From the NCBI GenBank assembly GCA_965220075.1, contig OZ244806.1, positions 519,009 through 583,008 on the forward strand: DNA of 64,000 nt, given 5' to 3'. A model generated the notes under the pieces. It was given only the letters and a program-made list of their open reading frames with translations, had not been told where the DNA came from and did no database searches. Below are positions 30,828 to 50,355 of this stretch, piece after piece. The translations under genes were made by a program, and so were the position numbers. Every line of letters starts with the position of its first letter. The first letter of the stretch is position 1. Source of the DNA: Chloroflexota bacterium. Its GTDB lineage: Bacteria; Chloroflexota; UBA11872.

Positions 30828-31715
30828 GTGAGCGCGGAGCGCCACGCCCAGGCCGCTCGCGAGATCGCGCTGGCCGTCTTTCCCTCCGATCGGCGTGGGA
30901 TCCGGGCGGCCTTGCAGTGCCTGCCGCGCGACGCCTACGCGCGCGCCGCGTGGGCTATTTGCGCCCGCCCGCCCGGCGTGGCCTTGATCGCCACGGGCTT
31001 CCCGGTGGGTGCGATTGGTGAGACCGACGGGCCGCCCGGTGCGCGCGCGCTAGGCGACGCCATGGCCGCGCTGGGCTGGAGCGTGGTCGGCGTTGCCTGC
31101 CCTACTACTCGGTCCGCCGTGAGCACCGTCATTCAGCCGCGCTATCCGGTGGAAGTAGTCCCCGCCGTCTCTGTCCCGGACGCCGCCGCGGCCTGCCGTG
31201 GATTGCTCGCGAAGTACAACCCGGATGCGGTGGTTGCGATCGAGCGGCCCGGCCTGACCGCGCAGGGACGCCTGATCAACATGCACGGCCAGGATCTCGC
31301 GCAACGAGCGGCCGCGCTCGACGGCTTGATGCGCGCGCCTCTCACCATCGCCATCGGCGACGGCGGCAACGAGGTCGGCATGGGCGCCATCGCCGGTTTC
31401 CTGGCCGCGCGGGAGATCCTTTCAGCGCCCTGCGTGACCCCGGCCACGCATCTCCTGCTGGCCTCGGTGAGCAACTGGGGGGCCTATGGGCTCGCGGCCA
31501 TGCTTGCGATCGTGACCGGAACCGAGGTGCTACCGTCGCCGGACGACGATGCGGCCTGGATGGACGCGCTGCGGCGGATAGGTGCGGCGGACGGGGTGAC
31601 CGGTGAGTTGACCGCGTGCACGGTTGACGGGCATCCGCGCGCGCGAACGGCCGCGGTTCTGGACGATCTGCGCAAGATCCAGCGCCGTTACGCGGGCGCG
31701 CCGCCAGGCGCTTAG
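30828..31715 (+). CDS. DUF4392-like protein (C-terminal half of the D-glutamate cyclase architecture)
   Basis: GFPVGAIGETDGPPGARAL...AIGDGGNEVGMG. The family assignment is from memory; the gene is co-directional with and 3 nt upstream of a DUF1445-like gene. Confidence 0.45.
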   Translation: MSAERHAQAAREIALAVFPSDRRGIRAALQCLPRDAYARAAWAICARPPGVALIATGFPVGAIGETDGPPGARALGDAMAALGWSVVGVACPTTRSAVSTVIQPRYPVEVVPAVSVPDAAAACRGLLAKYNPDAVVAIERPGLTAQGRLINMHGQDLAQRAAALDGLMRAPLTIAIGDGGNEVGMGAIAGFLAAREILSAPCVTPATHLLLASVSNWGAYGLAAMLAIVTGTEVLPSPDDDAAWMDALRRIGAADGVTGELTACTVDGHPRARTAAVLDDLRKIQRRYAGAPPGA

Positions 31716-31718
31716 GAC

Positions 31719-32525
31719 GTGAGCCGCGGCTTGCGATTCGCCACCGGCGCGGAGGTGCGCGCGGCCTCCCGCGCGGGCGTGTGGGACCGCCCTACCAGCG
31801 GGCTCGCGCCCGGGTATGTGCAGGCCAACCTGGTAATGCTGCCGGGTGATCTGGCGGACGACTTCGAGCGGTTTTGCCGCGCCAACCCCATCGCCTGTCC
31901 GCTGCTCGAGCGCACCGCTCCGGGCACTCCCGAGCCCGTCCGCTTTGCGCCCGGCGCCGACGTTCGCCGTGACGCTCCGCGCTACCGCGTCTATCTGAAC
32001 GGCGAGTCGGCGGCAGGTGAACCGCACGACGTGCTGCGTCACTGGACGGACGACATGGTCGCGTTCCTCATAGGCTGCAGCTTCACCTTCGAGGCGGCCA
32101 TGCTCCGGGCCGGCTTGCCCCTGCGGCACGTCGAGTCGGGATGCAACGTGCCCATGTACCGCACCTCGCGCCTTTGCCGGCCGCGCGGCGTCTTCCATGG
32201 CCCCATGGTCGTGAGCATGCGCCCCATCGCGTCGCGGCGGGTGGCCGAGGCGCGGCGCGTGACCGGCCGCTTCCCGCGCATGCACGGCGCGCCGGTGCAC
32301 GTGGGCGATCCGAGCGCGCTCGGCATCGCCCACCTCGACCGGCCGGACTGGGGTGATCCGGTGGAGATCCGTCAGGGCGAGGAGCCGGTGTTCTGGGGGT
32401 GTGGGGTGACTCCGCAGGCGGTCGCCATCGCCTCGCGCCCGGCCTTGATGCTCACCCACGCTCCGGGCCACATGTTCGTGACCGACCGCCGCGACGCCGA
32501 GTTCGAGGAGCCCGACGCGGCCTAG
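31719..32525 (+). CDS. DUF1445/UPF0317 putative hydro-lyase (N-terminal half of the D-glutamate cyclase architecture)
   Basis: GYVQANLVMLP...FCRANPIACPLLE...GAPVHVGDP. GTG start at 31719. Confidence 0.5.
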   Translation: MSRGLRFATGAEVRAASRAGVWDRPTSGLAPGYVQANLVMLPGDLADDFERFCRANPIACPLLERTAPGTPEPVRFAPGADVRRDAPRYRVYLNGESAAGEPHDVLRHWTDDMVAFLIGCSFTFEAAMLRAGLPLRHVESGCNVPMYRTSRLCRPRGVFHGPMVVSMRPIASRRVAEARRVTGRFPRMHGAPVHVGDPSALGIAHLDRPDWGDPVEIRQGEEPVFWGCGVTPQAVAIASRPALMLTHAPGHMFVTDRRDAEFEEPDAA

Positions 32526-33667: not shown

Positions 33668-34960
33668 ATGTTTGGAATCGGCGCACCTGAATTCTTCGCC
33701 ATCGTAGTCATCGCGATCGTCGTTCTGGGACCTGATCGCGTGCCGGTGGCGTTTCGCGCCATGGGGCGGGCCGTGCGGCGTCTGCGCGCCATGACCCGCG
33801 AGTTCCGCGCGGAGTTTGCCGAGGAGTTTCAATTCCTCTACGAGGAAGTAGATGTCCTGCGCAAGGAGGCCGCCGATACGCGTGCGGAGCTCCAGGAGAT
33901 CCGCCGCGAGCTCAGCGAGACCGTGCAGGAAACCACGAGCGAGCTGACCAGTGTCGGTGAAGAGCTTGGGAACGAAGTGAAAGGCGTGGCTTCCGACGTT
34001 CAGGGCGCGGTGTCAGTCGAGGGTCTTGAGCAGGGAATACGGGCGGCCGCCGTTGACGGCCCGGCCAGCCCGCCCGCGCCCGCCGTCGCCCCCGCCGCTG
34101 CAGCCAGCCCGACCGCACCTGCCTTCAAACCCGAACCGCTGGGCCCGGCCGATGCAATGGCGCTGGCCATCGCCGAAACCTTTGGCTCGAACGGCGCTCC
34201 GGACACCTCAGTCAGATCCCTCCCCGCCTTTGACGCCGTCCCGCCCGCCGCCGCGCCGGACCCGCCCTCGCCGGTTGAGCAGTTGGTCGCCTCGCGCGCA
34301 CGCCTTTCAGCCTTTGCCGCGGACCCGCCGGACCCGCCCGAGACCGTTGCGGCGCCTGCCGCCCCCGCCAGCCCCCCGCCGATCCCGGTGTCTCAGGCGT
34401 CCGAGCCGCCATACGCCCCGTTGTCCGCGGCGGGCATTGGCGCCGCGTCGGAGCCGGGCCTGCACAACCAGCTGGGCGGCTTCGTGCGCCTGATGGTGAT
34501 GCGGCAGCTCGAGCAGGACCAGGCGTTTCGAAGCGAAGCCGAGCGGACCTTGCGGGCGCAGGCGCATCTGGACGCGGACCGTGCGGCCGAGATCGAAGAC
34601 GCCGGCCTGAGCGACATCGCCGACGCCTGGATAGCGCAGCGGCGCCAGCTCGTTCGGCACGGAACGGTTGTGCGGCAACCATCCAAGGATGGTTCGGGCG
34701 TGATCGAGCTTTTCGAGTGCCCCTACCGCCTCGGGCCGGGCGACGCGCACCCGGTGTGCGACGTCAGCAACGTCTACGACGTCGAGTACTTCCAGCGGTT
34801 GGGTGTGGAGGCCAGCTACGCGCAACGCATGTCCGATGGGGCGCCGCATTGTCAGCTGAAGATCGCGCTTACCGCGAAGTCGGAAGCCGCCGGCGGGCAC
34901 GCTGACTCGGCGCCGCTGGACGGTGACCCCGCGTCACCCGCGCCCCAACCAGCACGCTGA
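33668..34960 (+). CDS. TatA/TatB-like twin-arginine translocase subunit fused to a long Pro/Ala-rich linker and a C-terminal Cys-containing domain
   Basis: N-terminus MFGIGAPEFFAIVVIAIVVLGPDRVPVAFRAMGRAVRRLR is a Tat TM helix plus amphipathic helix. The C-terminal ~150 aa contain ELFECPYRLGPGDAHPVCDVS...APHCQL, which is possibly ATC-hydrolase-like (unverified). Confidence 0.55.
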   Translation: MFGIGAPEFFAIVVIAIVVLGPDRVPVAFRAMGRAVRRLRAMTREFRAEFAEEFQFLYEEVDVLRKEAADTRAELQEIRRELSETVQETTSELTSVGEELGNEVKGVASDVQGAVSVEGLEQGIRAAAVDGPASPPAPAVAPAAAASPTAPAFKPEPLGPADAMALAIAETFGSNGAPDTSVRSLPAFDAVPPAAAPDPPSPVEQLVASRARLSAFAADPPDPPETVAAPAAPASPPPIPVSQASEPPYAPLSAAGIGAASEPGLHNQLGGFVRLMVMRQLEQDQAFRSEAERTLRAQAHLDADRAAEIEDAGLSDIADAWIAQRRQLVRHGTVVRQPSKDGSGVIELFECPYRLGPGDAHPVCDVSNVYDVEYFQRLGVEASYAQRMSDGAPHCQLKIALTAKSEAAGGHADSAPLDGDPASPAPQPAR

Positions 34961-35021
34961 CCAGCCATCACCCGATAGCCTCACGGGCGCGGCGCGGCAA
35001 ACTCGGGATCGAGGCCGAACC

Positions 35022-35957
35022 TTGAGGATAGGCGCGCATTGCAGCGCCGCCGGCGGCCTGCACCTGGCGCTTGAGCGGGCCGCTCAAATGGGTTGCCGCA
35101 GCGTTCAGATATTCACCTCGAGCCCGCGCCGCTGGCAGCCAAGCGTGCACGGCACTGAGGCTGTCGAGAAATGGCGCGAGGCCCGCGCGGCGCACGACGT
35201 CGGGCCGGTCTTTTCGCACGGCCCCTACCTCATCAACCTGGCGGCCGAGCAGCGGCGAATCTACCAAGCCTCAGTCGCGGCGCTCTCAGCGGGACTGCGT
35301 CACTGTGAAGCCCTGGGACTCGAGGGGCTCATCTTTCACCTGGGCAGCCACCAGGGCCGCGGCCTGCCGGCGGCGCTGCCGCAAGTCGCCGGAGGGCTGG
35401 CCCAGGCGTTGGAAGCGTCACCCGGCGCGTCCCTCCTGCTCCTCGAGAACAGCGCCGGCGCCGGCAACGCGATCGGCGCCTCGTTGCACGAGTTGGCGGC
35501 CGTCATCGACAGTACGGGCGGACACGAGCGCCTCCGAGTTTGCCTGGACAGCGCCCATGCCTTTGCCGCCGGATTCGATCTGCGCCGCGCCGAGGAGGTA
35601 GTACGTCTGGTTCACGACCTGCGAGCCAACGTGGGGCTGGACCGTCTCGCCGCCCTGCACCTCAACGACTCGTTGACGCCGCTCGGATCAAAGCGCGATC
35701 GACACGCAAACCTGGGGGAGGGTGAGATCGGCCTCGCGGGGCTGGCCAACTTCCTGCGGCACCCCGCCTTCGCGGGTCTGCCCGCGATGCTGGAGACGCC
35801 GGGCTTCGGCGGCGGCGGACCCGATAAGTGCAACGTCGAGATCGCGCTGGCTCTTATCGAACAGGGGTCCGCTACGGCCTGTGGCGCCTTGCGGCGCGCC
35901 CGCGCAAGTCACGGGACCTCCGCGCAACCGCGCGGCCCGCGGAACTCCAGGCGATGA
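35022..35957 (+). CDS. nfo: Endonuclease IV (AP endonuclease family 2)
   Basis: LRIGAHCSAAGGL...HGPYLINL...FHLGSH...LLENSAGAGN...VCLDSAHAFAAGFDL...LHLNDS...SKRDRHANLGEGEIG...LETPG closely parallels E. coli Nfo. TTG start at 35022; the upstream part of the listed ORF was rejected. Confidence 0.85.
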   Translation: MRIGAHCSAAGGLHLALERAAQMGCRSVQIFTSSPRRWQPSVHGTEAVEKWREARAAHDVGPVFSHGPYLINLAAEQRRIYQASVAALSAGLRHCEALGLEGLIFHLGSHQGRGLPAALPQVAGGLAQALEASPGASLLLLENSAGAGNAIGASLHELAAVIDSTGGHERLRVCLDSAHAFAAGFDLRRAEEVVRLVHDLRANVGLDRLAALHLNDSLTPLGSKRDRHANLGEGEIGLAGLANFLRHPAFAGLPAMLETPGFGGGGPDKCNVEIALALIEQGSATACGALRRARASHGTSAQPRGPRNSRR

Positions 35958-46382: not shown

Positions 46383-47561
46383 ATGCAAATCGAGAGCATC
46401 CAAATCAAGAACTACCGGCTCTTTCGCAGCGTCACCCTGAGTGATCTGCCGCGCATGGCTGTGGTCGTGGGCGCCAACGGGTCAGGCAAATCGACGCTGT
46501 TCGACGTCTTCACCTTCCTCAAGGACGCGCTGACTCAGAACGCCGCCGCGGCGGTGGCCAGGCGCGGCGGATTCCGCGAGTTGGTCAGCCGCGGTGAGCA
46601 GGGTCCAGTCGGAATCACCATCAAGTTTCGCGAGAGCGGCGGGCGGCTGGCGACCTATCTGCTCGATGTTGCCGTAGCGAGCGGGCGCGTGGTCGTGGAC
46701 CGCGAAGTGCTGCGCTACCGCCGAGGCCAGGGAGGCGGTCGGCCCTGGCGCTTCGTGGACTTCTCGCGAGGTGCCGGAACCGCAATCACCAACGAGTCTG
46801 CCTATGGCCAGGAAGGCGTGGACGAGGAGCGCGAGAACTACGAGCTCGACGATCCTAGCGTCCTCGCCATCAAGGGCCTGGGTCAATTCCGCGAGTTCCG
46901 GGTAGTCGCGGAGTTCCGCAACCTGATCGAGAACTGGCACGTCTCAAACTTCCATGTCGCCGACGCCCGGCCTAGCGCCGAGGTCGGCTACGCCGAGCAC
47001 CTTTCCACCCGCGGCGACAACGTCGCGCAGGTTGCTCAGTACCTCTACGAGAACGAGCGCGAGCGCTTCAACCAGGTCCTCGCGGCCATGAGCCGGCGCG
47101 TCCCTGGCGTGAGCGGCGTCGAGGCCAAACCCACCGAGGACGGGCGTCTTGTGCTGCGCTTCCAGGACGGCAGCTTCCGGGACCCGTTCATTGCCCGCTA
47201 CGTCTCGGACGGCACGATCAAGATGTTCGCCTACCTTGTGCTGCTCTACGACCCCAAGCCGCACCCCCTGCTGGCAATCGAGGAGCCGGAGAACCAGCTC
47301 TACCCCGAGTTGCTGCCGGAGTTGGCTGAAGAGTTCCGCGACTACGCGCGGCGCGGCGGCCAGGCGTTCGTTTCGACCCACTCGCCCGACTTCCTGAACG
47401 GAGTGGAGCTCGACGAAATCCTCTACCTGGTCAAGCAGGACGGCTTCACCACCGTGCACCGCGCTCGTGAGAGTGAGTTACTGCGCAATCTGGTGGCAGA
47501 GGGGGACTTGCCAGGCGCGCTGTGGAAGCAGGGGCTGTTCGAAGGCGCGGGGATTCAGTGA
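46383..47561 (+). CDS. AAA_21/ABC-type ATPase, OLD-family N-terminal-domain-like (AbiLi-like)
   Basis: IQIKNYRLFRSVTL...VVVGANGSGKSTLFD (Walker A)...LLAIEEPENQLYPELL (Walker B/D-loop)...STHSPDF (H-loop). No fused nuclease domain. Confidence 0.75.
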   Translation: MQIESIQIKNYRLFRSVTLSDLPRMAVVVGANGSGKSTLFDVFTFLKDALTQNAAAAVARRGGFRELVSRGEQGPVGITIKFRESGGRLATYLLDVAVASGRVVVDREVLRYRRGQGGGRPWRFVDFSRGAGTAITNESAYGQEGVDEERENYELDDPSVLAIKGLGQFREFRVVAEFRNLIENWHVSNFHVADARPSAEVGYAEHLSTRGDNVAQVAQYLYENERERFNQVLAAMSRRVPGVSGVEAKPTEDGRLVLRFQDGSFRDPFIARYVSDGTIKMFAYLVLLYDPKPHPLLAIEEPENQLYPELLPELAEEFRDYARRGGQAFVSTHSPDFLNGVELDEILYLVKQDGFTTVHRARESELLRNLVAEGDLPGALWKQGLFEGAGIQ

Positions 47562-49617: not shown

Positions 49618-50355
49618 TTGATCGTGCGGATCAGCTTCACCAAGCTCGATCTCTTCGAGTTCTGCCCTTGGGCCTACCGCTACCGCTACGTCGAGCGAAT
49701 CCCCACGCCGTTTTCACCGCGGCTTGCCACCGGCGCCGCGGTTCACGCCGTGCTGCGGCGGTTCTTCGAGCGCCTGCAGTCGGGCGCGCAGGCCGGACTG
49801 TCCGAGCTTCTCGCTATGTACGAGGACTATTGGGCTGGTGCGCCTTGGCTCGATCCGGCGCGGCAGCCAGACCTGTGGGACCGGGGTCTGGCGCTTCTCA
49901 AAGGCTTTTGGGCCGCCAACGCGGCTAACCTGGGCCGTCCTGTTCTGCTTGAGGCGCGCTTTCGTGTATCGCTGGAGCCAGGTGATCGGCACACCGTGGA
50001 GGGCCTGATCGACCGCGTGGACGAAACGGCTGGCGGCGTGGAGATCATCGATTACAAGAGCGGCGCCCGGCCCGACGGCTTGCCCGAGTACACGCGTACC
50101 CAGCTGCACACTTACGCGCTTGCCGTCGAACGCCAGTTCGGTTTGACCCCTGTGCGTCTTACGGCCTACTTCCTTAGCGACAACCGCGCCTTGTCGTCCG
50201 CGCCGGATCGCGGCTATGCCAGCCGACTGCGAAAGCGCTTCGCGGCTGCCGCCGCTGACATCGCCGCGGGGAGTTTCGGGGCGACTCCCGGACCGCAGTG
50301 CGCGCGCTGCGATTACGCCGACCGCTGTCCCCATAAGTGGACCGAAGGCGCGTAG
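49618..50355 (+). CDS. PD-(D/E)XK-superfamily nuclease with a Cas4/AddB-like four-Cys cluster
   Basis: The FCPWAYRY N-terminal Cys plus the C-terminal CARCDYADRC give the 1+3 Cys spacing of Cas4/RecB-family Fe-S nucleases. The central IDRVDE...IIDYKSG matches the D...E-x-K core. Confidence 0.6.
   Translation: MIVRISFTKLDLFEFCPWAYRYRYVERIPTPFSPRLATGAAVHAVLRRFFERLQSGAQAGLSELLAMYEDYWAGAPWLDPARQPDLWDRGLALLKGFWAANAANLGRPVLLEARFRVSLEPGDRHTVEGLIDRVDETAGGVEIIDYKSGARPDGLPEYTRTQLHTYALAVERQFGLTPVRLTAYFLSDNRALSSAPDRGYASRLRKRFAAAAADIAAGSFGATPGPQCARCDYADRCPHKWTEGA

What the first reader, a model, noticed from the sequence alone, without database searches (positions are those of the whole stretch)
33668..34960. 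TatA/TatB-like N-terminus fused to a Cys-containing C-terminal domain
The first ~50 aa are a textbook Tat component (MFGIG...FFAIVVIAIVVLGPDRVP... plus an amphipathic helix). However, the protein is 430 aa. It continues through a long low-complexity Pro/Ala linker into a ~150-aa globular region with CPYRLGPGDAHPVC...APHC. TatB proteins often have disordered tails, but a structured Cys-bearing domain at the end is atypical. It could tether a metal-binding or hydrolase-like domain to the translocon, or it could represent a gene fusion.
Basis: partly seen in the sequence, partly recalled or inferred. Interest (0 to 1): 0.55.

Follow-up and report, generated by a model that had tools for sequence, protein, structure and literature searches.

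The report
TatB fused to V4R-like cysteine domain
A small group of uncultured Chloroflexota-type bacteria has a version of the TatB protein-export subunit whose normally floppy cytoplasmic tail ends in a folded, three-cysteine (probably metal-binding) sensor-type domain; I found no description of this combination, and it could give the folded-protein export machine a built-in checkpoint.

Summary
Window 33668-34960(+) is a real 430-aa gene. Residues 1-81 pass the TatB equivalog model. A long charged helix, two disordered Pro/Ala linkers and a short conserved helix (158-177) follow. Residues 264-401 form a confidently folded domain (pLDDT 87) that holds the protein's only three Cys (351, 364, 395). 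The fusion is not an error. All 11 full-length relatives recovered (357-446 aa, 28-59% identical), including two complete Chloroflexota MAG chromosomes, have the same architecture. The one 'split' copy is a 1-nt deletion. The C-domain passes no Pfam or NCBIfam threshold. Several members give sub-threshold, full-length matches to ATC_hydrolase and MetOD1, and Foldseek returns Bet3, the V4R-type sensor domains of MopR/PoxR and H-NOX, so it is a divergent member of that superfamily. It is very rare: 15 hits among 1.84 billion representatives. The only Tat-less relatives lie in a thiazole-peptide (TOMM) cluster. No tatC or tatA lies nearby. Most likely this is a working TatB carrying a cytoplasmic, Cys3-metal, ligand- or peptide-binding module on a flexible leash at the TatBC receptor. 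The architecture is shown; the metal, the ligand and the link to export are inferred. It is a new variant of a known kind, of moderate interest.

The parts
33668..34960 (+). Whole gene: 430-aa TatB-type protein with a C-terminal V4R/ATC_hydrolase-like Cys3 domain (stop codon 34958-34960)
   Evidence: ORF list; called identically on three public contigs; coding GC signature in this frame
33683..33727 (+). Transmembrane helix, aa 6-20 (APEFFAIVVIAIVVL), with invariant polar Glu8
   Evidence: Model helix 6-20; E8 invariant in 11 sequences; TatA_B_E and TatB model matches
33728..33817 (+). Gly21-Pro22 hinge and Arg-rich amphipathic helix, aa 21-50
   Evidence: L20, G21, P22, R24 and P26 invariant; 29% Arg in residues 23-50; helix from residue 25
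33818..34009 (+). Long acidic, charged helix, aa 51-114, well conserved to about residue 100
   Evidence: Continuous helix 25-114, pLDDT 73-86 by 10-residue block, falling to ~59 at 101-110; 26% Glu and mean identity 0.58 in 51-100
34010..34138 (+). Disordered Pro/Ala linker 1, aa 115-157
   Evidence: pLDDT < 50; mean identity 0.27, variable length
34139..34198 (+). Conserved island, aa 158-177 (LGPADAMALAIAETFGSNGA): a short helix, possibly a binding motif
   Evidence: Mean identity 0.65; D162 invariant; M164, I168, F172, N175 and G176 at 90% or more; helix 160-172 at low confidence
34199..34456 (+). Disordered Pro/Ala linker 2, aa 178-263, with a weakly predicted helix at 202-216 (RLxAFAPD block in the close subclade)
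   Evidence: 26% Pro, mean identity 0.28, gap fraction 0.25; pLDDT < 50
34457..34870 (+). Folded C-terminal domain, aa 264-401: three helices, a beta-hairpin, a helix and a second beta-hairpin (H-NOX/V4R/Bet3-type fold)
   Evidence: pLDDT 87, pTM 0.80; Foldseek hits to Bet3, MopR, PoxR and H-NOX; sub-threshold PF14196 and PF18546 matches in relatives; conservation
34718..34720 (+). Cys351 (E-C-P-Y, in the loop after the first hairpin)
   Evidence: Codon verified; conserved in all members except P0012
34757..34759 (+). Cys364 (HPVC, N-terminal cap of helix 362-377), followed by conserved S367-N368-x-Y370-D371
   Evidence: topologically equivalent to the helix alpha6 Cys of the V4R Zn site (inference)
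34850..34852 (+). Cys395 (GAPHC, start of the last beta-strand)
   Evidence: topologically equivalent to the last hairpin Cys of the V4R Zn site (inference)
34871..34957 (+). Disordered, unconserved tail, aa 402-430
   Evidence: Short low-confidence helix 403-409, then pLDDT < 50 from 409; mean identity 0.28

Best explanation
The gene encodes a genuine TatB-type subunit of the twin-arginine (Tat) folded-protein export system. Its cytoplasmic tail has been extended by a folded, roughly 137-residue domain. The N-terminal 100 residues are the best-conserved part of the protein: a short TM helix with Glu8, a Gly-Pro hinge, an Arg-rich amphipathic helix and a long acidic helix. By the established TatA/B topology and the positive-inside rule, everything after the TM helix lies in the cytoplasm. 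Two disordered Pro/Ala linkers (about 150 residues in total, interrupted by one short conserved helix) tether a domain of the H-NOX/V4R/Bet3 fold, whose nearest sequence families are ATC_hydrolase and MetOD1. Its three Cys are the only ones in the protein and are kept or lost as a set. They most likely hold a metal, probably structural Zn as in the V4R sensor domains of MopR, PoxR and DmpR. They sit next to a conserved polar patch (Q298, D302, S367, N368, Y370, D371, R387). Anchored at the TatBC receptor, where TatB's membrane-extrinsic part already takes part in substrate quality control, the tethered domain most likely binds a small hydrophobic ligand or cofactor, or a peptide segment of substrates. 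That would add a ligand-dependent checkpoint or chaperone function to the translocon. Shown: gene, architecture, conservation of the fusion, fold class, rarity. Inferred: cytoplasmic location, metal binding, ligand or peptide binding, any effect on export.
For: TatB identity: TIGR01410 scores 58.4 against a cutoff of 56.5, and Pfam TatA_B_E 27.1 against 21. G3, G5, E8, L20, G21, P22, R24 and P26, plus many residues up to I78, are invariant in 11 sequences that are only 28-59% identical overall. The N-terminal module is the most conserved region. Fusion: the same architecture is found in L004 and L005 (complete Chloroflexota MAG chromosomes) and in P0002-5, P0007-9 and P0012. Fold: pLDDT 87, pTM 0.80, and the same domain boundaries in the full-length model. 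Superfamily: Foldseek hits to Bet3/TRAPPC3 (E = 1e-4, TM 0.54-0.58), MopR and PoxR (E = 1e-3) and H-NOX (E = 2e-3), all over the full length. Sub-threshold, near full-profile matches to PF14196 and PF18546 occur in several family members. These families are linked to one another, and to a shared 3-Cys cluster, in PMC5847659. Cys as a unit: exactly three Cys per protein, all in the domain, and P0012 has lost all three. In V4R the Zn site uses a Cys on helix alpha6 plus hairpin residues and is structural. C364 and C395 occupy the equivalent elements in the model. TatB's membrane-extrinsic part performs folding quality control with chaperone-like activity (PMC9436932).
Against: No tatC or tatA lies within the 64 kb window or within about 8-10 kb in any relative, so no partner has been shown. 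The TatB model is passed by only 2 bits. The window protein's C-domain passes no curated family threshold, and a profile search of PDB sequences found nothing. TM-scores are moderate (0.5-0.6). The V4R ligands E-x2-C are not conserved; the third Cys comes from a different loop, so the site is not a canonical V4R Zn site. P0012 lacks the Cys, so the metal is not essential in every member. No ligand, substrate or phenotype is known.
Confidence: 0.5

Rival explanations
1. Co-opted anchor. The TatB-like N-terminus no longer works in Tat export and only tethers a V4R/ATC_hydrolase-like sensor or enzyme to the cytoplasmic face of the membrane. The protein's function has nothing to do with protein translocation.
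For: The gene is never next to tatC or tatA. The TatB model is passed only marginally. Neighbourhoods are metabolic or housekeeping, with loosely recurring GLUCM-like_C, Iso_dh and Lon/FtsH-type genes.
Against: A simple anchor would not need the TatB-specific residues (E8, the G21-P22 hinge, the amphipathic-helix arginines, acidic-helix positions up to I78) to stay invariant at 28-59% overall identity, and this module is the most conserved part of the protein. From my own knowledge, tatB is commonly unlinked from tatAC in Actinobacteria, so an isolated tatB is not unusual.
Confidence: 0.2
2. Tethered enzyme. The C-domain is catalytic, for example a C-S bond or thiazoline-type hydrolase like AtcB, with the Cys triad or a Cys3-bound metal and an open coordination site as the active centre. 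It would act on a cofactor, lipid or peptide at the membrane or translocon.
For: The nearest sequence family is ATC_hydrolase. Three Cys ligands without a conserved fourth are typical of catalytic rather than structural sites (my own knowledge). Conserved polar residues lie next to the Cys: S367, N368, Y370, D371, R387. The Tat-less paralogs sit in a thiazole/oxazole RiPP cluster, where thiazoline chemistry occurs. PMC5847659 suggests a related enzymatic activity for MetOD1.
Against: All Pfam matches are below threshold. P0012 keeps the domain but has lost all three Cys and R387. All the structurally characterised Foldseek hits are binding or scaffold domains, not enzymes.
Confidence: 0.15
3. 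Redox or Fe-S sensor. The three Cys bind an Fe-S cluster or form reversible disulfides, so that Tat activity responds to the cell's redox or iron status.
For: A Cys3 motif with all-or-none conservation. Many Tat substrates are Fe-S or redox enzymes (established knowledge). The domain is cytoplasmic.
Against: No match to any Fe-S family. In the structurally characterised relatives the corresponding Cys cluster binds structural Zn. Nothing in the sequence data supports this reading specifically.
Confidence: 0.1
4. Artefact. Two separate genes (tatB and a small Cys protein) were merged by an assembly or sequencing error, or the tail is a spurious high-GC open frame.
For: Long spurious ORFs are common at 70% GC. 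One relative (L013) is called as two genes and another (P0010) is frameshifted.
Against: The identical 430-aa product is called on three independent assemblies. Eleven full-length relatives keep one frame. The L013 split is a 1-nt deletion inside the conserved island, and both halves stay about 92% identical to P0004. The coding GC signature is present in both modules, and the domain is confidently folded.
Confidence: 0.01

Closest known systems
TatB (TIGR01410; E. coli TatB, plant Hcf106), within the TatA_B_E family PF02416
   Same: An N-terminal short TM helix with a polar residue at position 8, a Gly-Pro hinge, a basic amphipathic helix and further cytoplasmic helices. It passes the curated TatB and TatA_B_E thresholds.
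   Different: From my own knowledge, canonical TatB is about 130-250 aa with an unstructured tail; the 2026 review describes the C-terminal regions of TatA proteins as likely largely unstructured (PMC13186574). Here the tail is about 330 residues and ends in a folded Cys3 domain. No adjacent tatC or tatA was found.
V4R-type sensor (A) domain of the sigma54 activators MopR, PoxR, DmpR and XylR
   Same: Full-length Foldseek matches (E about 1e-3, TM about 0.5). A Cys at the N-terminus of the helix that precedes the C-terminal beta-hairpin, and a Cys on the last strand, correspond to two of the structural Zn ligands.
   Different: No Pfam V4R (PF02830) match at any threshold. The E-x2-C pair of ligands is missing, and the third Cys comes from the loop before the helix. 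The domain is fused to a membrane translocase subunit rather than to an AAA+/DNA-binding regulator. No phenol-pocket residues were identified.
ATC_hydrolase (PF14196) and MetOD1 (PF18546)
   Same: These are the only sequence families with co-linear, nearly full-profile matches to members of this family (E = 1.4e-3 to 6.6e-3). A cluster of three conserved Cys is described for them (PMC5847659).
   Different: Every match is below the gathering score, and the window protein itself gives none. MetOD1 is found in methanogen response regulators, and AtcB is a soluble enzyme. I found no report of either fused to a Tat component.
Bet3/TRAPPC3 subunits of the eukaryotic and Asgard TRAPP tethering complex
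   Same: The best structural matches (E = 1e-4, TM 0.54-0.58, 147-159 aligned columns).
   Different: 10-17% identity. Bet3 is a scaffold subunit that carries a covalently bound palmitate. It has no Cys3 cluster and no functional link to Tat.
Tat proofreading chaperones (REMPs such as TorD, DmsD, NapD) and the quality-control activity of TatB itself
   Same: Functional analogy only: cytoplasmic modules that bind Tat substrates or signal peptides before export. TatB's membrane-extrinsic part behaves like a chaperone (PMC9436932).
   Different: REMPs are separate soluble proteins with unrelated folds. No binding by the domain described here has been shown.
Tat-less paralogs P0015, P0018 and P0019 (about 259 aa: an N-terminal wHTH-like region plus the same Cys3 domain)
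   Same: The closest sequence relatives of the C-domain outside the TatB fusions (about 23% identity across the aligned domain, 38-40% over the conserved core; all three Cys, P352 and D371 conserved).
   Different: No TM or Tat module. P0015 is encoded in a TOMM-type RiPP cluster with an NHLP-clan precursor, an ocin_ThiF_like protein and a SagB dehydrogenase.

Membership tests
TatB (TIGR01410) / TatA_B_E (PF02416) | Scores at or above the curated model cutoffs | tested here: met
   TIGR01410 58.4 bits against 56.5 (a margin of only 2 bits); PF02416 27.1 against 21. The tatAE model TIGR01411 fails (24.9 against 53.9).
TatB (TIGR01410) / TatA_B_E (PF02416) | A short N-terminal TM helix with a polar residue at position 8, then a Gly-Pro hinge (TatB type) and a basic amphipathic helix | tested here: met
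   E8, L20, G21 and P22 are invariant; 29% Arg in residues 23-50; model helices 6-20 and 25 onward.
TatB (TIGR01410) / TatA_B_E (PF02416) | A TatC partner (and TatA) encoded in the same genome | not testable with these tools
   None in the 64 kb window or in 12 related loci. The rest of the 2.7 Mb genome could not be read.
TatB (TIGR01410) / TatA_B_E (PF02416) | Takes part in Tat-dependent export (binds TatC and substrate) | not testable with these tools
   This needs an experiment.
V4R (PF02830) | Sequence match to the family model | tested here: not met
   No PF02830 hit for the window protein at E <= 1, nor for 10 family members at E <= 10.
V4R (PF02830) | Fold shared with solved V4R-containing sensor domains | tested here: met
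   Foldseek hits to MopR (5kbe, 5kbh) and PoxR (5frw, 5frv): E = 1e-3 to 4e-3, TM 0.51-0.56, 149-159 columns.
V4R (PF02830) | Zn site made of a Cys on helix alpha6 plus E-x2-C-x7-C on the hairpin | tested here: not met
   Only the helix Cys (C364) and the last hairpin Cys (C395) have topological equivalents. The E-x2-C positions read R387..S389/D390. The third Cys (C351) is in the preceding loop. This mapping rests on secondary-structure order, not on a superposition.
ATC_hydrolase (PF14196) | Scores at or above the gathering threshold (28.1 bits) | tested here: not met
   The best scores are 19.8 bits (P0015) and 19.2 bits (P0018), both from the Tat-less branch. The window protein gives no hit.
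MetOD1 (PF18546) | Scores at or above the gathering threshold (23.8 bits) | tested here: not met
   P0005 scores 16.9 bits, E = 6.6e-3, profile positions 25-141 of 142. Two of 10 members match at E about 2e-3.
ATC_hydrolase / MetOD1 / V4R superfamily (HNOB-like) | A cluster of three conserved Cys in the C-terminal alpha/beta part | tested here: inconclusive
   Three conserved Cys are present, and the superfamily feature is described in PMC5847659. Residue-by-residue equivalence to PF14196 or PF18546 could not be checked, because the tool shows no alignments and no seed sequences were available.
H-NOX (PF07700) | A proximal heme-ligating His on the central helix and the Y-x-S-x-R propionate-binding motif | tested here: not met
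   No invariant His in the domain; H361 is confined to the close subclade. No YxSxR motif; the sequence is Y384-AQ-R387-M-S389. The fold match is only E = 2e-3. The H-NOX motif definition is from my own knowledge.

The most novel reading that the evidence does not exclude
The tethered V4R-like Cys3 domain is a sensory or proofreading module built into the Tat receptor complex. It would bind a cofactor, a small hydrophobic ligand or a segment of the substrate or signal peptide, and would gate or chaperone export accordingly. That would be the first core Tat translocon subunit known to carry its own ligand-sensing domain, and a natural experiment on how TatB's cytoplasmic part performs quality control.
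Probability: 0.2. Interest if true: 0.8.

Novelty: new variant of a known kind. Interest (0 to 1): 0.55.

Why it matters
How the Tat system checks that a substrate is folded and loaded with its cofactor before export is an open question, and TatB's membrane-extrinsic part has been implicated in it (PMC9436932). A natural TatB that carries a folded domain from a ligand-binding superfamily (H-NOX, V4R, Bet3) on a long leash would be a concrete and testable case of an added checkpoint at the translocon. It also defines a very rare new branch of the V4R/ATC_hydrolase/MetOD1 superfamily, with about a dozen representatives among 1.84 billion. The only other context of that branch is a thiazole-peptide biosynthetic cluster, which may hint at what the domain binds. 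If the domain turns out to be a passive appendage in a few uncultured Chloroflexota, the finding is a curiosity of domain architecture.

Tried and rejected
1. Pfam and NCBIfam scans of the C-terminal 180 aa gave no family. The weak Sf6_terminase and Ntox1 hits are noise.
2. The zinc-ribbon idea has no support: no such family was hit, and the Cys spacing (C-x12-C-x30-C) and their placement on a loop, a helix and a strand do not fit a ribbon.
3. A word-indexed homolog search with the C-terminus found only one protein. With the family profile it found eight.
4. A word-indexed search with the TatB module (aa 1-110) returned nothing at E <= 1e-5 from only 62 candidates. It was wasted, so I could not see the nearest TatB proteins that lack the domain.
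5. A profile search of PDB sequences gave no meaningful hit.
I did not repeat it, since one search already covers metagenome proteins.
8. Model coordinates are not exposed, so Cys-Cys distances and any docking of the island onto the domain could not be measured.
Nothing was found.
10. The promoter and terminator scan around the gene found nothing, and there are no Rfam hits in the window.
11. Literature searches for TatB together with V4R gave no papers, and the search on TatB in Chloroflexi gave nothing relevant.
12. The 'split gene' reading of P0016/L013 was rejected as a 1-nt deletion.
13. Heme binding of the H-NOX type was rejected for lack of a conserved His.
Full report
**Observation.** Window 33668-34960 (+) is an intact ATG-initiated ORF of 430 aa. 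The identical product is called on three independent public assemblies, one of them a 2.70 Mb contig whose name suffix suggests it is circular (ERZ25067264 ctg836550_21x_c). At 70% GC long spurious ORFs are common, and many are visible on the opposite strand, so I checked the coding signal. GC at codon positions 1/2/3 is 0.73/0.41/0.75 in residues 1-100 and 0.74/0.42/0.85 in residues 264-400. That is the same signature as the neighbouring genes, and it lies in one frame. Both alternative forward frames contain stops. The three Cys are residues 351, 364 and 395, and they are the only Cys in the protein.

**N-terminal module.** Residues 2-81 score 58.4 bits on the NCBIfam TatB equivalog TIGR01410 (cutoff 56.5). 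Pfam TatA_B_E scores 27.1 (cutoff 21). The TatA/E model fails. In an alignment of 11 full-length family members that are 28-59% identical overall, G3, G5, E8, L20, G21, P22, R24 and P26, plus many positions up to I78, are invariant. This module is the most conserved part of the protein. The full-length model gives a TM helix at 6-20 and one long helix at 25-114. With no positive charge before the TM helix and 29% Arg in residues 23-50, the positive-inside rule and the established TatA/B topology place everything after residue 21 in the cytoplasm. That placement is an inference.

**Tail and C-domain.** The region after residue 114 breaks down as follows.

| Residues | Feature | Evidence |
|---|---|---|
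| 115-157 | Pro/Ala-rich linker | poorly conserved (identity ~0.27), variable length, pLDDT < 50 |
| 158-177 | conserved island LGPADAMALAIAETFGSNGA | identity 0.65, D162 invariant, short low-confidence helix |
| 178-263 | Pro/Ala-rich linker | poorly conserved (identity ~0.28), variable length, pLDDT < 50 |
| 264-401 | folded domain | see below |
| 402-430 | tail | disordered, unconserved |

With only a 10-sequence alignment, residues 264-401 model confidently (mean pLDDT 87, pTM 0.80). The order of elements is three helices, a beta-hairpin, a helix and a second beta-hairpin. The same boundaries appear in the full-length model.

**Is the fusion real?** A word-indexed search with the C-terminus found only one protein, a 5'-truncated ortholog at a contig end. 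A scan of one genome per GTDB species found two relatives, both on complete 'Chloroflexota bacterium' MAG chromosomes (OZ252016.1 and OZ244789.1). Both are full-length proteins (433 and 417 aa) with the same architecture. An exhaustive HMMER search of 1.84 billion representatives gave only 15 hits at E <= 1e-3:
- Two are repeat-protein noise (P0011, P0013).
- All eight full-length hits of 357-446 aa begin with MFG[IV]G..E...LGP[DE]R.P, that is, with the TatB module.
- P0010 is a frameshifted copy.

One relative (L013) is called as two genes. Comparison shows a single missing G inside the conserved island (ISETF: TCGGAAAC reads TCGAAAC), and both halves remain about 92% identical to P0004. That is a long-read assembly error or a very recent pseudogene, not a natural split. 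The second refutation criterion therefore also fails. In total about 28 sequences in 8 clusters at 90% identity are known. The only public name is 'twin-arginine translocase TatA/TatE family subunit' (MBM4435738.1), which says nothing about the C-domain.

**What the C-domain is.** The window protein's C-domain passes no Pfam or NCBIfam threshold, and a family-profile search of PDB sequences found nothing. Three lines of evidence point to one superfamily.
- Several members give sub-threshold but co-linear, almost full-profile matches to two related Pfam families: PF14196 ATC_hydrolase (P0015, E = 1.4e-3, positions 11-142 of 145; P0018, E = 2.3e-3) and PF18546 MetOD1 (P0005, E = 6.6e-3, positions 25-141 of 142; two of 10 members at about 2e-3).
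- Foldseek against the PDB returns Bet3/TRAPPC3 (E = 1e-4, TM 0.54-0.58), the phenol-sensor domains of MopR and PoxR (E = 1e-3 to 4e-3) and H-NOX (E = 2e-3), all over roughly the full length.
- Galperin et al. 2018 (PMC5847659) state that MetOD1, HNOB, V4R and ATC_hydrolase are related, and that MetOD1, V4R (PoxR, MopR) and ATC_hydrolase share a cluster of three conserved Cys.

I conclude that the domain is a divergent member of the H-NOX/V4R/ATC_hydrolase/MetOD1 superfamily. It is not a member of any one of these Pfam families as currently defined.

**The Cys triad.** In MopR, PoxR, DmpR and XylR a structural Zn is held by a Cys on helix alpha6 plus Glu, Cys and Cys on the following hairpin. 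In the model, C364 caps the equivalent helix (362-377) and C395 opens the last hairpin strand. The E-x2-C positions are not conserved, and the third Cys (C351, in E-C-P-Y) comes from the loop before the helix. Every member has exactly three Cys, all in the domain, except P0012, which has lost all three at once. That all-or-none pattern argues that they act as one unit, most simply a metal site. Conserved polar residues lie next to them (S367, N368, Y370, D371, R387; also Q298 and D302), which suggests a functional pocket beyond pure scaffolding. There is no invariant His and no Y-x-S-x-R motif, so H-NOX-type heme binding is unlikely.

**Context.** No TatC and no second TatA/B gene occurs in the 64 kb window or within about 8-10 kb in 12 related loci. 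The neighbourhoods are housekeeping genes and only loosely syntenic. A GLUCM-like_C gene recurs within a few genes (window; L008-L010). Iso_dh lies upstream and an FtsH-like gene downstream in L004, L005, L011 and L013. A Lon_C protein lies directly upstream in L008-L010. From my own knowledge, an unlinked tatB is normal in Actinobacteria. The rest of the genome could not be read, so whether tatC, tatA or a second tatB exist remains open.

**Closest non-Tat relatives.** P0015, P0018 and P0019 (about 259 aa) combine an N-terminal wHTH-like region with the same Cys3 domain. P0015 lies in a TOMM-type RiPP cluster, between an NHLP-clan precursor and an ABC-ATPase-like gene on one side and an ocin_ThiF_like maturation protein and a SagB dehydrogenase on the other. 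A thiazoline-hydrolase-like domain in a thiazole-peptide cluster suggests that this branch of the superfamily deals with peptides or thiazoline chemistry. For the TatB fusion this is a lead, not evidence.

**Mechanism.** The steps shown are a TatB-type membrane module, a flexible leash of about 150 residues with one conserved short helix, and a folded V4R-class Cys3 domain, with the architecture conserved across a small clade. The inferred steps are these:
- The protein works as TatB at the TatBC receptor. The TatB-specific residues are invariant, which a mere anchor would not need.
- The domain is cytoplasmic and binds a metal, probably Zn.
- Like its structural relatives, which bind heme, phenols or acyl chains, it binds a small hydrophobic ligand or cofactor, or, like the RiPP-cluster paralog may do, a peptide segment.

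TatB's membrane-extrinsic part already contributes to folding quality control with chaperone-like activity (PMC9436932). A tethered binding domain could therefore add a ligand- or substrate-dependent checkpoint. The rivals are an anchor-only protein unrelated to Tat (0.2), a tethered hydrolase (0.15), an Fe-S or redox sensor (0.1) and an artefact (0.01).

**Novelty and verdict.** The C-terminal regions of TatA proteins are described as likely largely unstructured (PMC13186574). No paper in the searchable library mentions TatB together with V4R. The family consists of about a dozen representatives from recent metagenomes, annotated at most as TatA/E. This is a new variant of a known kind: a bona fide TatB module fused to a new, very rare branch of the V4R/ATC_hydrolase/MetOD1 superfamily. 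Interest is moderate (0.55). The architecture would surprise a Tat specialist and offers a testable handle on translocon-level proofreading, but the function is wholly inferred and the family is confined to a few uncultured lineages.

Noticed in passing
L006:4619-9509 (NCBI GCA_038206175.1, JBBRBE010000009.1): The Tat-less paralog P0015 (wHTH-like N-terminus plus the same Cys3 ATC_hydrolase-like domain) sits inside a TOMM-type RiPP cluster: an NHLP-clan precursor (NF038399, 40.9 bits), an ABC-ATPase-like gene, P0015, an ocin_ThiF_like protein (TIGR03693, E = 1.5e-22) and a SagB dehydrogenase (TIGR03605, 154.6 bits). A thiazoline-hydrolase-like domain in a thiazole-peptide cluster may be an undescribed accessory protein.
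   Followed up: partly
L013:3501-4759 (ENA ERZ21830300 ctg591632l); also P0010: The ortholog is called as two overlapping genes (167 aa TatA_B_E plus 252 aa) because one G is missing inside the conserved island (TCGGAAAC reads TCGAAAC). P0010 is likewise a frameshifted copy. These are probably long-read assembly errors, and they show how this family can be mis-split in annotation.
   Followed up: yes
P0012 (357 aa; Logan, JGI and ENA contigs): The most divergent family member keeps the TatB module and the domain fold signature (P352, S367, Y370, D371), but all three Cys are replaced (D, A, T) and R387 is replaced by L. It is a natural Cys-less variant that could serve as a control for the role of the metal site.
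   Followed up: partly
window 30828-32525 (+); L008:10302-11195; L009:11115-11972: A two-gene D-glutamate cyclase-like pair (GLUCM-like_C, PF14336, then D-Glu_cyclase, PF07286) lies just upstream of the tatB fusion in the window. A GLUCM-like_C gene recurs two to three genes downstream of the distant orthologs. This is loose synteny of unknown meaning.
   Followed up: no
L008:6304-7926, L009:6323-7915 (Lon_C protein directly upstream, same strand); L004:10541-12400, L005:10957-12807, L011:9992-11872 (FtsH-like, downstream, opposite strand): Membrane or AAA+ proteases (Lon-like S16, FtsH-like M41) are immediate neighbours of the tatB fusion in most relatives, but not in the window. This could be coincidence or a link to protein quality control.
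   Followed up: no
P0002 = MBM4435738.1: The only family member named in NCBI nr is assigned to 'Actinobacteria bacterium / Actinomycetota bacterium', whereas the two complete-chromosome relatives are labelled Chloroflexota. Either the family spans two phyla or one MAG is mis-classified.
   Followed up: no
window 34923-35957 (+): The longest ORF of the downstream endonuclease IV-like gene (AP_endonuc_2) starts at a GTG at 34923 and would overlap the tatB 3' end by 38 nt. The public gene call starts at about 35022 (311 aa), leaving a 61-nt gap. The shorter call looks more plausible.
   Followed up: no
window 46383-47561 (+) and 49618-50355 (+): An AAA_21/AAA_15 ATPase (an OLD/AbiEii-like family) and a PD-(D/E)XK nuclease lie about 2 kb apart. 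They may be defence-related genes unrelated to the finding.
   Followed up: no
window 1-64000: No Rfam family reaches its gathering score anywhere in the 64 kb window, on either strand.
   Followed up: no
tool behaviour, one search compared: The word-indexed protein search with the TatB module (aa 1-110) found no hit at E <= 1e-5 from only 62 candidates, although the full protein and its relatives are in the collection. Negative results from that tool for short or compositionally biased queries should not be read as absence.
   Followed up: no
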